Shown in pieces: positions 24,001 to 27,000 of a stretch of DNA of 64,000 nucleotides. The stretch lies in assembly GCF_048403405.1 (NCBI RefSeq), contig NZ_CP183129.1; one strand, written 5' to 3'. The DNA comes from Escherichia coli (GTDB taxonomy: Bacteria; Pseudomonadota; Gammaproteobacteria; Enterobacterales; Enterobacteriaceae). The position numbers are program-made. Position 1 is the first letter of the stretch; each line of letters starts with the position of its first letter.

Positions 24001-27000
24001 CCCTCAAACCCAGAATAGTTAAATGGAATTTGAGTGATGCGAAGCGATTTTCCAGTCGTCGTTATTACTTCAGGGTTCCAGAACATAAAGCCTCTCCTCT
24101 TTCATGATTGGCCTGTGCATACCGGATATAGGCTGGCTGGTATGCAGGTTTGCCGTTTGCCGCATCTTCCCTGCGTTGAAGAGTCAGGCTGGCAAACCGC
24201 GTGCAAATGAACACCCCCACTTTCCATCAACACTTCAGACAGCTTGCGGGAATGAGTCCACTCCGGTATCAGAAATGGCTACGCCTCAATGAAGCCAGGC
24301 GACTGATGCTGAATGAACATTACGATGTCACCACTGCAGCCTATGCTGTCGGTTTCGAAAGCTTATCCCATTTCAGTCGGGAATATTCGCGGATGTTTGG
24401 AGAGTCACCTAAGAGAGATATTACCAGGTTAAGAAAGTCTGTCGGTCAGCTTTAATAAACCCTGCACTTATCTGTTTAAAGCAATTCCGTGTTAGTTACA
24501 CCAGGCAAACATTAACTATGGCTAATGATTTATAGCCATATAAACCATTGGTCGCTCTTGACCTTTCCTGACACTTCCCTTGTTCGCAATAATATTCTGT
24601 TTAGTCGCTGTTTATAAATAACATGCATAATGAAATCGTAATGTTATTTAGCGACATAAAATGTCTTTGCAAATACTCTCTACAACAAGTGCTGCAATAA
24701 ACTTGTTGAGATTAGGTGTCCTTGTAATTTAAAGATATTATCGTTCTTCGTGAAGTGTAATAACCCTGGAAACTATATTCTCAGGGCAATATCCCATCAA
24801 GAATGATTCTTGTTTTATAAGCAATAACAGAATGACTTAATTGTTAACTTTCTTTATTCAGCTACTTAAATATAAATTTTGGAGAATTATGAAACTCAAA
24901 CATGTCGGTATGATTGTCGTTTCTGTGTTGGCGATGTCGTCTGCTGCGGTAAGCGCAGCCGAGGGTGATGAATCAGTAACGACCACTGTTAATGGCGGTG
25001 TTATTCATTTTAAAGGTGAAGTGGTAAATGCCGCTTGTGCGATTGATTCAGAATCAATGAACCAAACGGTTGAGCTGGGTCAGGTCCGTTCTTCTCGTCT
25101 GGCTAAAGCGGGTGACCTCAGCTCCGCCGTTGGCTTCAATATCAAGCTGAATGATTGTGATACCAATGTTTCCAGTAATGCAGCTGTTGCATTCCTGGGT
25201 ACTACTGTCACCAGTAATGACGACACATTAGCGCTGCAGAGTTCAGCGGCAGGCTCTGCCCAAAATGTCGGTATTCAAATTTTGGACCGTACGGGGGAGG
25301 TATTAATACTTGATGGTGCCACTTTTAGCGCTAAAACTGACTTGATTGATGGCACGAATATATTGCCGTTCCAGGCTCGATATATTGCTCTCGGGCAGTC
25401 AGTAGCTGGTACTGCAAACGCAGATGCGACCTTCAAAGTTCAATATCTATAATTCAATCTTAAGGTGGCTATACGTCATCTGAAATTGAAACAGGGTGTG
25501 TGTGGCATGGCTACGCACACCCTAGCAACTCAGAAATGTGAATCTCATTATTAATGAGGAGTGGTTTGTATTTGGAGCGCTATGAAAAATCACATAATAT
25601 CTAAACGATCAATAAACAACAGTAGTTAAATTTACTGTTATTTAAAAAATTTACTTTGTAGCAAGGTTTTCCTATTAAAAGAGAACCAACATTTATTTCA
25701 AACGCATTAAGTCTGGAAACCCGGCGACTCGCCAATGTATTAGCAACATTTACCGATTGTCTGATGTAACGGTTTCCCCGCTTATCCTCTTAACACATGG
25801 AGAATGCATCAGATGCAAACTACGCGTACCCTCTACTCTATTTCCTTTATGGCGACAGTGTTACTTTTATTGCTCTTTGCTTGCCATAGCACCATTGCCA
25901 ACGCAGCTGTCGCACTGGGTGCGACGCGGGTAATTTATCCGGCAAACCAGAAACAGGTTTTATTGCCTGTCACGAATAATGATCCTGCCAGTGTCTATCT
26001 CATTCAGTCATGGATAGAAAATGCAGGTGACCAAAAAGACACCCAGTTTGTCATTACCCCACCGCTTTTTTCCATGCAAGGTAAAAAAGAGAATACGCTG
26101 CGGATAATCAACGCCACTAATCATCAGTTACCAGGCGACCGTGAAAGCCTGTTCTGGGTTAATGTTAAAGCTATTCCTGCTATGGAAAAAGATCAGAAGA
26201 ATGAGAATACATTACAGCTGGCAATTATTAGCCGCATAAAAATGTTTTATCGCCCCACGAACCTGGCAATGGCACCTGAAGAAGCGCCTGCAATGCTTCG
26301 GTTTCGTCGCAGCGGCAGCAAACTCACTCTTATTAATCCAACGCCCTACTTCATTACCGTAACAAATATGAAAGCAGGAAATAGCAATCTCCCAAACACC
26401 ATGGTGCCGCCAAAAGGTGAAGTATCGGTGGATATCCCGCATGCTGCAACCGGGGATATCAGTTTTCAGACGATCAATGATTACGGTGCATTAACTCCGC
26501 GTATTAAGGCAACCATGCAATAAGCCAGTGACCTAATTAATAATAAACTCAATCGGAATTAAAAATGACAGCCTTTCATGCCGCATTTAAGGCATATCGT
26601 ATGCATCAGGTGTTAATACTGCCTCGCTTTGTACGGCTTACCTTTGCCCTTGGCTTAGCAACTGCGGTTTTTCCCGTTGACGCAGAGTATTATTTTAATC
26701 CACGGTTTTTAAGCAATGATCTTGCTGAATCTGTCGATTTATCCGCCTTTACTAAGGGACGCGAGGCACCACCTGGTACATATCGGGTCGACATTTATTT
26801 GAACGACGAATTTATGACTAGTCGGGATATTACTTTTATTGCAGATGATAATAACGCAGATCTCATCCCATGCCTGAGTACAGATCTTCTTGTCAGTCTT
26901 GGCATAAAAAAATCAGCGTTATTAGACAATAAAGAACATTTGGCAGAAAAACATGTGCCGGACAACAGCGCATGCACACCACTTCAGGATCGTTTGGCCG

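What the first reader, a model, noticed from the sequence alone, without database searches (positions are those of the whole stretch)
25493..25523. Stem-loop between the major subunit and chaperone genes
An 8-bp stem AGGGTGTG / CACACCCT with a 15-nt loop lies in the 351-bp gap between the major subunit and the chaperone. Such intra-operon hairpins in chaperone-usher operons can stabilise the upstream transcript or attenuate read-through to set subunit stoichiometry.
Basis: seen in the sequence. Interest (0 to 1): 0.25.

Follow-up and report, generated by a model that had tools for sequence, protein, structure and literature searches.

The report
Conserved RNA hairpin after F9 pilin gene
A very stable, highly conserved RNA hairpin sits just after the major-subunit gene (fmlA) of the E. 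coli F9 fimbrial operon, and it most likely protects that part of the transcript from degradation rather than stopping transcription, which makes it an ordinary kind of element.

Summary
The hairpin is real and stronger than described. It has 14 bp (25493-25506 / 25510-25523), a 3-nt loop and -24.8 kcal/mol. That ties for the most stable 40-nt local fold on the + strand of the window.

The locus is the E. coli F9/Fml chaperone-usher operon (fmlA, spacer, chaperone, usher, ydeS, ydeR, ydeQ). The element is single-copy. Its 30-nt core is identical in 3486 of 3590 E. coli genomes that carry it, although the surrounding spacer differs by 5-10% in most. The commonest stem polymorphism turns a U.G pair into U-A. 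Two G.U pairs make the + (mRNA) strand fold better than the - strand.

There is no U tract, so it is not a canonical intrinsic terminator.

About 50 related fimbrial operons carry a short GC hairpin with GGA in its loop at the same position. This matches FimR2, the RNase E-processed, CsrA-binding small RNA from the fimA 3' UTR. E. coli F9 has no GGA there, and a model of the FimR2-type element does not match it.

Best reading: a 3' protective hairpin or processing boundary for the fmlA message, possibly the end of a small RNA with no CsrA motifs. No transcript data exist. It is a new member of a known kind, of modest interest.

The parts
24889..25452 (+). fmlA, the F9 fimbrial major subunit gene (187 aa); stop codon TAA at 25450-25452
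   Evidence: RefSeq annotation of identical DNA; translation; operon identified by the downstream ydeS, ydeR, ydeQ and ydeP genes
25453..25490 (+). Weak proximal structure in the 3' UTR: outer stem UUCAAU/AUUGAA (25453-25458 / 25485-25490) enclosing a 7-bp hairpin AGGUGGC-UAUAC-GUCAUCU (25463-25481). It contains UUAAGGUGGC, a possible relic of FimR2 GGA motif 1 with GGA changed to GGU, and one RN|WUU RNase E-type motif at 25483
   Evidence: Folds; model alignment; comparison with L092 UUAAGGAC; motif scan
25493..25523 (+). The hairpin: 5' arm 25493-25506, loop AUG 25507-25509, 3' arm 25510-25523. It has 14 bp including 2 G.U pairs and folds at -24.8 kcal/mol. No U tract follows
25524..25812 (+). 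AT-rich untranslated spacer before the chaperone gene (about 37% GC over the whole gap). It holds many RN|WUU motifs and further predicted structures, and is the likely site of endonucleolytic entry
   Evidence: Composition and motif counts; folds; no recognisable fimI remnant
25813..26523 (+). fmlB, the periplasmic chaperone gene (RefSeq start; an alternative ATG lies at 25804)

Best explanation
The hairpin is a sense-strand RNA structure in the 3' untranslated region of fmlA. It acts as a barrier to 3'-to-5' exonucleases.

Proposed sequence of events:
1. The f9 operon is transcribed from the promoter upstream of fmlA through the spacer.
2. The long, AU-rich, untranslated spacer between the hairpin and the chaperone gene is cut by an endonuclease, most likely RNase E, or transcription sometimes ends there.
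3. Exonucleases trim back to the 14-bp stem and stop.
4. This leaves a long-lived fmlA message, while the chaperone, usher and minor-subunit part decays faster. The major subunit is therefore made in large excess.

The same stem would also form the stable 3' end of any small RNA released from this 3' UTR, as happens with FimR2 in the sister fim operon.

Shown: the structure, its exceptional stability, its conservation, its strand bias, and the presence of a conserved hairpin at the same place in related operons. Inferred: every step involving RNases, transcript ends and stoichiometry.
For: Stability:
- -24.8 kcal/mol, z -4.5, 0 of 200 shuffles as good.
- Ties for the most stable + strand local fold in 64 kb.
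- Stronger than the best local fold after the major-subunit stop codon in 53 related operons (median -15.5, minimum -20.4).

Strand: the - strand fold is only -18.9 kcal/mol, because two G.U pairs become A.C mismatches.

Position: the stem starts 40 nt after the stop codon, outside the footprint of a terminating ribosome (sequence).

Conservation:
- The 30-nt core is identical in 3486 of 3590 genomes.
- The whole gap is at least 99% identical in only 103 of 3654 genomes and 90-95% identical in 2632.
- Against the most divergent allele, the hairpin has 1 change in 29 positions and the rest of the gap has 68 in 335 (Fisher p 0.025).
- The commonest stem variant (51 genomes) is G25515A, which turns U.G into U-A.
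- Variant alleles still fold at -20 to -24 kcal/mol.

Context:
- In an alignment of 47 fim-type sequences (46 related operons plus K-12 fim), the hairpin after the major-subunit gene is paired in 93.6% of cells and shows GC/AU covariation at two pairs.
- In FimR2, mutations that disrupt this stem destabilise the RNA and compensatory mutations restore it (PMC9723502).
- 3' protective hairpins and differential decay are established for malEFG, papBA and the CFA/I fimbrial operon (PMC5927463).
- The spacer downstream contains 14 RN|WUU motifs.
Against: - No transcript 3' ends, half-lives or processing sites have been measured at this locus; none of the papers found describes them.
- Conservation is within one species only, so there are no true compensatory double changes.
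- 19 genomes carry a mildly disruptive G25515T, and other parts of the spacer are as conserved as the hairpin.
- The genome sample used for the diversity statistic was chosen for divergence, not at random.
- F9 is poorly expressed under most laboratory conditions (PMC3966885, PMC12890032), so selection on stoichiometry is an assumption.
Confidence: 0.5

Rival explanations
1. It is the structural core of a small RNA derived from the fmlA 3' UTR. This would be an F9 counterpart of FimR2, released by RNase E and acting in trans by base pairing rather than by binding CsrA. This overlaps with the best explanation, because the stem has the same protective role in both.
For: - FimR2 (35 nt) is annotated in the equivalent fimA-fimI gap of K-12. 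It is RNase E-processed and needs its hairpin for stability (PMC9723502).
- F9 and type 1 fimbriae are sister operons (PMC7766294).
- Local alignments place F9 AAACAGGGTGTGTGTGGC----ATGGC against the FimR2-type AAACAGGATGTATGCTGGGCTAGGATGGC of an F9-type operon from another taxon (p 0.04). The same register appears with three other relatives.
- An RN|WUU motif at 25483 would give a product of about 39 nt ending at the stem.
- FimR2 loop mutants that cannot bind CsrA still cause biofilm formation.
Against: - The FimR2-type covariance model gives no match to any E. coli F9 allele.
- There is no GGA within 105 nt of the stop codon.
- Almost the whole candidate RNA is locked in the stem, leaving only about 8 nt single-stranded.
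- No such RNA has been reported, and nothing is annotated here in any RefSeq genome.
- The sequence homology is only marginally significant, and the model aligns it in a different register.
Confidence: 0.17
2. It is a transcription attenuator or terminator that stops a fraction of RNA polymerases after fmlA, either as an unusual intrinsic terminator or as the trimmed end of Rho-dependent termination in the untranslated spacer.
For: - It is a GC-rich stem directly after the most highly needed gene, followed by a long untranslated stretch where Rho could act.
- Some related operons have the equivalent hairpin followed by a U run: L094 GCCCAGUUUUUU, L040, L045 and L052.
- More distant operons have classical terminators there: Proteus L057 and Acinetobacter L072.
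Against: - The stem is followed by UAGCAACUCAGAAAUG (GAGCAAUUCACC in most strains), so there is no U tract.
- The terminator scan does not call it.
- The 100 nt downstream have G 18 and C 14, which is not rut-like.
- All genes for assembly lie downstream with no convincing internal promoter, so strong termination would block pilus assembly.
Confidence: 0.13
3. It has no RNA function. It would be an imperfect DNA palindrome, for example a protein-binding site, a relic of a (GT)n slippage or insertion event, or a chance structure carried along with the operon.
For: - It contains a (GT)4-5 run, and one assembly shows a GT-unit length change (ecoli019).
- It is unique to E. coli F9; the closest F9-type operon elsewhere (L101) lacks it.
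- No covariation is available.
Against: - It is single-copy with no repeat family.
- The strong conservation against variable flanks argues against neutrality.
- The G.U asymmetry, and the wobble-to-Watson-Crick change as the main variant, fit RNA pairing.
- A hairpin at this position is the rule in the family.
Confidence: 0.1

Closest known systems
FimR2, the RNase E-processed small RNA from the fimA 3' UTR of the E. coli and Salmonella type 1 fimbrial operon (Raad et al., NAR 2022, PMC9723502; b4838 in K-12)
   Same: - It occupies the same position, directly after the major-subunit gene of the sister gamma-1 fimbrial operon.
- It has a hairpin on the sense strand.
- Its hairpin is what makes the RNA stable.
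- The two share flanking words (CAGGG ... CACCCU) at nearly the same spacing as in K-12 FimR2.
   Different: - FimR2 has a 4-6 bp stem (-9 to -11.5 kcal/mol) with GGA in the loop and a second GGA in a single-stranded 5' part.
- The F9 element has a 14-bp stem, an AUG loop, no GGA, and almost no single-stranded part.
- The FimR2-type covariance model does not match it, so CsrA binding is not expected.
3' protective hairpins that cause differential decay within operons (the malE-malF intergenic structure; papBA/papA; CFA/I cfaAB), as summarised in Dar and Sorek 2018 (PMC5927463)
   Same: It is a stable stem-loop just downstream of the first, most abundantly needed cistron of a polycistronic transcript, followed by a nuclease-accessible segment. 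The expected outcome is excess of the upstream gene product.
   Different: - malE-malF uses REP-type repeats, whereas this is a unique sequence.
- The papA 3' structure is a terminator with partial read-through.
- No decay or end-mapping data exist for F9.
Rho-independent (intrinsic) terminators and attenuators after pilin genes, seen here in Proteus and Acinetobacter relatives (L057, L072)
   Same: A GC-rich stem at the end of the pilin gene.
   Different: It lacks the U tract that defines intrinsic terminators.

Membership tests
FimR2-type element in the 3' UTR of the fimA-type major-subunit gene | Lies in the untranslated region directly after the stop codon of the major-subunit gene of a gamma-1 (fim-like) operon | tested here: met
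   The hairpin starts 40 nt after the fmlA stop codon. FmlA is 57-82% identical to the major subunits of operons that carry the element.
FimR2-type element in the 3' UTR of the fimA-type major-subunit gene | Short GC stem with a GGA motif in the loop, which is the CsrA contact site in FimR2 | tested here: not met
   The loop is AUG. 46 of 47 fim-type sequences have GGA in the loop, and E. coli F9 has none.
FimR2-type element in the 3' UTR of the fimA-type major-subunit gene | A second GGA motif in the single-stranded part, 8-32 nt after the stop codon | tested here: not met
   All 47 fim-type sequences have it. The first GGA in E. coli F9 is 106 nt after the stop codon. The candidate relics read GGU (25464-25466) and GGG (25494-25496).
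FimR2-type element in the 3' UTR of the fimA-type major-subunit gene | Significant match to a covariance model built from family members | tested here: not met
   Model R1 scores K-12 fim at 27.8 bits and held-out F9-type operons at 23.8, 14.4, 14.1 and 10.7 bits. No E. coli F9 allele matches. The best score with filters off is 2.6 bits (E 0.88), and that alignment skips the hairpin.
FimR2-type element in the 3' UTR of the fimA-type major-subunit gene | Released as a small RNA of about 35 nt by RNase E | not testable with these tools
   This needs a northern blot or small-RNA sequencing. Only an RN|WUU motif at 25483 can be pointed to.
Intrinsic (Rho-independent) terminator | GC-rich stem-loop | tested here: met
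   14-bp stem, -24.8 kcal/mol.
Intrinsic (Rho-independent) terminator | A run of U immediately after the stem | tested here: not met
   The stem is followed by UAGCAACU. The scan requiring at least 5 T in 8 nt does not report it.
REP/BIME or other dispersed extragenic palindromes | Many copies per genome with a shared consensus | tested here: not met
   Exactly one place per genome in all 3590 genomes that have it.
3' protective hairpin of a differentially decaying operon | Stable structure just downstream of the stabilised cistron, in a region not unwound by ribosomes | tested here: met
   The stem starts 40 nt past the stop codon, inside a 360-nt untranslated gap.
3' protective hairpin of a differentially decaying operon | RNA 3' ends accumulate at the structure, and the upstream segment has a longer half-life than the downstream genes | not testable with these tools
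   No end-mapping or decay data for f9 were found in the papers searched.

The most novel reading that the evidence does not exclude
The E. coli F9 operon has converted an ancestral FimR2-type, CsrA-binding 3' UTR element into a different RNA. This RNA has no GGA and is clamped by a 14-bp stem. It is released from the fmlA 3' UTR and acts in trans, or deliberately uncouples F9 expression from the CsrA/FimR2 circuit that links type 1 fimbriae to motility and biofilm formation.
Probability: 0.12. Interest if true: 0.5.

Novelty: new member of a known kind. Interest (0 to 1): 0.3.

Why it matters
F9/Fml fimbriae are adhesins of uropathogenic and enterohaemorrhagic E. coli, and their regulation is known only at the promoter (H-NS, low temperature). 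A conserved post-transcriptional element after fmlA would explain how a single promoter yields a large excess of the rod subunit. It would also be a simple target for engineering F9 expression.

The comparison has wider interest. The FimR2-type hairpin with GGA in its loop appears to be a near-universal feature of fim-like operons across Enterobacterales. E. coli F9 is a natural case where the CsrA-binding motifs are absent but a stem is kept. That separates the 'stability' role of the hairpin from its 'CsrA sponge' role.

Tried and rejected
- Rfam search of 24000-26500 at E up to 10 found nothing. This is uninformative, because the K-12 FimR2 locus also gives no real hit, so FimR2 is not in Rfam 15.
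- Dispersed repeat (REP-like): rejected, because there is one copy per genome.
- Degraded fimI gene in the gap: blastx and blastn against the fimI-like genes of about 80 related loci gave only chance-level hits.
- Small ORFs: a 15-codon ORF at 25583 is frameshifted in many strains. The 15-codon ORF starting at the loop ATG stays open but changes many residues and has no ribosome-binding site. Both were rejected as genes.
- Terminator for a minus-strand transcript: the - strand fold is weaker, and there is no promoter-like site or gene on that strand in the gap.
- Orthologues outside E. coli for covariation: the species-representative genome scan found no F9 chaperone above 70% identity apart from one contaminated MAG. 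F9-type operons from unassigned metagenome or read-archive contigs (73-78% chaperone identity) do not carry this hairpin. Covariation for this stem therefore cannot be obtained.
- Literature on transcript ends at f9: none found. One planned Term-seq/O157 search failed on term syntax and was not repeated.

Full report
**What is there.** The window is E. coli chromosome. DNA identical to 24800-25900 is annotated in RefSeq as a fimA-type major subunit gene followed by a periplasmic chaperone gene. The cluster continues with an usher gene, ydeS, ydeR and ydeQ, and then ydeP. This is the F9 (Fml/Yde) chaperone-usher operon. Its promoter lies 251 nt upstream of the major subunit gene, is repressed by H-NS, and is active at low temperature (PMC3966885). 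In window coordinates fmlA is 24889-25452. The chaperone gene starts at 25813 (RefSeq) or 25804 (first ATG), so the gap is 360 or 351 nt.

**The observation.**
- 25493-25506 pairs with 25510-25523 to give 14 bp, two of them G.U pairs. The loop is AUG.
- The minimum free energy is -24.8 kcal/mol, z = -4.5, and none of 200 dinucleotide shuffles folds as well.
- A scan of the whole window in 40-nt steps places it joint first on the + strand. Only one fold on the - strand is stronger.
- It sits in a gap of about 37% GC.
- The reverse strand folds less well (-18.9 kcal/mol), because the two G.U pairs become A.C mismatches. This points to the mRNA strand.

**What it is not.**
- No U tract follows the stem, and the terminator scan does not report it.
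- The next 100 nt have more G than C, unlike a Rho loading site.
- It is not a REP-like repeat, because every one of the 3590 E. coli genomes that has it has exactly one copy.
- Rfam has no match. Rfam also lacks the relevant comparator, FimR2, so this says little.
- The gap shows no trace of a decayed fimI gene.
- Nothing is annotated at this site in any RefSeq genome.

**Conservation.** The spacer is unusually variable for E. coli. Only 103 of 3654 genomes are at least 99% identical to the window over the 351 nt, and 2632 are 90-95% identical. The 30-nt hairpin core, by contrast, is identical in 3486 of 3590 genomes.
- Of the 103 genomes with one difference, 51 have G25515A, which converts a U.G wobble into U-A.
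- 19 have G25515T, which gives a U.U mismatch.
- All sampled alleles except one still fold at -20 to -24 kcal/mol. The exception is a possibly mis-assembled record with 2-nt losses in both arms.
- Against the most divergent allele (81% identity over the gap), the hairpin has 1 change in 29 positions and the rest of the gap has 68 in 335 (p = 0.025).
- The hairpin is not the only conserved block. The stretch before the chaperone start is equally conserved.
- Because the element is confined to E. coli, no double compensatory changes are available.

**Comparative context, the most informative result.** A scan of species-representative genomes with the chaperone protein returned about 80 related operons. 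Most are fimA-fimI-fimC operons, with major subunits 55-72% identical to FmlA.
- In 47 non-redundant fim-type sequences, the 60 nt after the major-subunit stop codon share one design. A GGA motif lies 8-32 nt after the stop codon. It is followed by a short GC hairpin, typically GGGCC-AGGAW-GGCCC, with a second GGA in the loop.
- That stem is paired in 93.6% of cells and shows GC/AU covariation at two of its six pairs. The score exceeds all 500 shuffles and all slid controls.
- In K-12 this stretch is annotated as the small RNA FimR2 (UUCAGGGACGUCAUUACGGGCAGGGAUGCCCACCC).
- According to Raad et al. (PMC9723502), FimR2 is cut out of the fimAICDFGH transcript by RNase E. It needs its hairpin for stability, as shown by disruptive and compensatory mutants. 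It binds CsrA through the loop GGA, and it also acts through its single-stranded part.

**How the F9 hairpin relates to FimR2.** It is the positional counterpart but not a recognisable member.
- The first GGA in the E. coli F9 gap is 106 nt after the stop codon, and the loop is AUG.
- A covariance model built from the 47 fim-type sequences finds the element in held-out F9-type operons of other taxa. These have a major subunit, a 290-450 nt AT-rich spacer, then the chaperone, with no fimI. Their scores are 23.8, 14.4, 14.1 and 10.7 bits.
- The model finds nothing in any E. coli F9 allele. With filters off, the best alignment scores 2.6 bits and skips the hairpin.
- Local alignments suggest descent with modification. 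F9 AAACAGGGTGTGTGTGGC----ATGGC aligns with AAACAGGATGTATGCTGGGCTAGGATGGC of an F9-type operon (p about 0.04). The same register is recovered with three other relatives. In this reading the loop GGA was lost by a 4-nt deletion, the first GGA became GGG, and the stem grew outward to include it.
- The model alignment proposes a different register: UUAAGGUGGC as the first motif, with the ancestral hairpin deleted. The exact homology is therefore unsettled.
- The closest F9-type relative (L101, major subunit 82% identical) has neither the FimR2-type hairpin nor the E. coli stem.

**Mechanism.** The best-supported reading is a 3' protective hairpin. The stem lies beyond the reach of the terminating ribosome. 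It is followed by about 290 nt of untranslated, AU-rich RNA with 14 RN|WUU motifs, and it is strong enough to stop PNPase and RNase II. This is the malE-malF, papA and CFA/I logic reviewed and extended by Dar and Sorek (PMC5927463). The FimR2 mutant data show that the homologous-position stem in the sister operon does protect RNA.

I give this reading about 0.5. A small RNA ending at the stem is compatible with it (0.17). Attenuation of transcription (0.13) lacks the sequence features. A non-RNA or neutral origin (0.1) fits poorly with the conservation pattern. None of these can be decided without transcript data, and none were found for this locus.

**Verdict.** It also missed the FimR2 connection. 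This is an undescribed member of a well-known class of intra-operon elements. One mildly interesting feature is that it appears to be a FimR2-type element without the CsrA-binding motifs.

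Noticed in passing
window 25524-25830: The rest of the fmlA-fmlB spacer folds far better than shuffles (whole gap z = -5.7). 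GGUUUGUA at 25564-25571 can pair either with 25694-25703 or with the chaperone start region at 25813-25822. The first option has one compensatory U-A to C-G change in strain EC42405. GGAAACC (25715-25721) pairs with GGTTTCC (25771-25777). This could be a structured 5' leader controlling chaperone translation.
   Followed up: partly
window 25618-25639: A second, AU-rich hairpin AACAGTA / TACTGTT with an 8-nt loop, followed by AUUUAAAAAAUUUACUUU. Three strains change a U-A pair to U.G, which still pairs on the + strand only.
   Followed up: no
window 25544-25558: A near-perfect palindrome CTCATTA-T-TAATGAG. Its loop is too tight for an RNA hairpin, so it is possibly a protein-binding site. It is conserved in most alleles.
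   Followed up: no
window 25507-25554 and 25583-25630: Two 15-codon ORFs. The one starting at the loop ATG of the hairpin stays open in both main alleles but with many amino-acid changes. The other is frameshifted by an extra A in many strains. Neither looks like a gene.
   Followed up: partly
loci L013-L088 (region after the major-subunit stop codon) and L091 875-909: The FimR2-type design (GGA, then a GC hairpin with GGA in the loop, often a third GGA near the fimI ribosome-binding site) is conserved after fimA-type genes in more than 40 operons. These include Raoultella, Klebsiella, Citrobacter, Kluyvera, Serratia, Yersinia, Providencia, Erwinia, Pantoea and an Aeromonas cavernicola contig. 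FimR2 is absent from Rfam 15.
   Followed up: partly
L092, L094, L100, L101, L102 (Logan contigs): F9-type operons exist outside E. coli in unassigned contigs. They have a major subunit, a long AT-rich spacer of 287-451 nt, then the chaperone, with no fimI. Major subunits are 73-82% identical to FmlA. The organisms were not identified.
   Followed up: partly
L098 1-75 and L099 1-30: A tandem heptamer repeat (CAGTAAG)n lies immediately upstream of the FimR2-type element of an F9-type operon, at a contig end. It may be a length-variable repeat at the 3' end of the major-subunit gene.
   Followed up: no
L008 1-700 (E. coli EC488): An IS2 insertion truncates fmlA in this urinary isolate, while the hairpin and spacer remain intact. 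A frameshifted fmlA is also seen in O78 strain 3.
   Followed up: no
window 24201-24455: A remnant of a helix-turn-helix regulator gene, annotated as a pseudogene in identical DNA, lies upstream of the f9 promoter. This matches the variable 5' region described for f9 loci.
   Followed up: no
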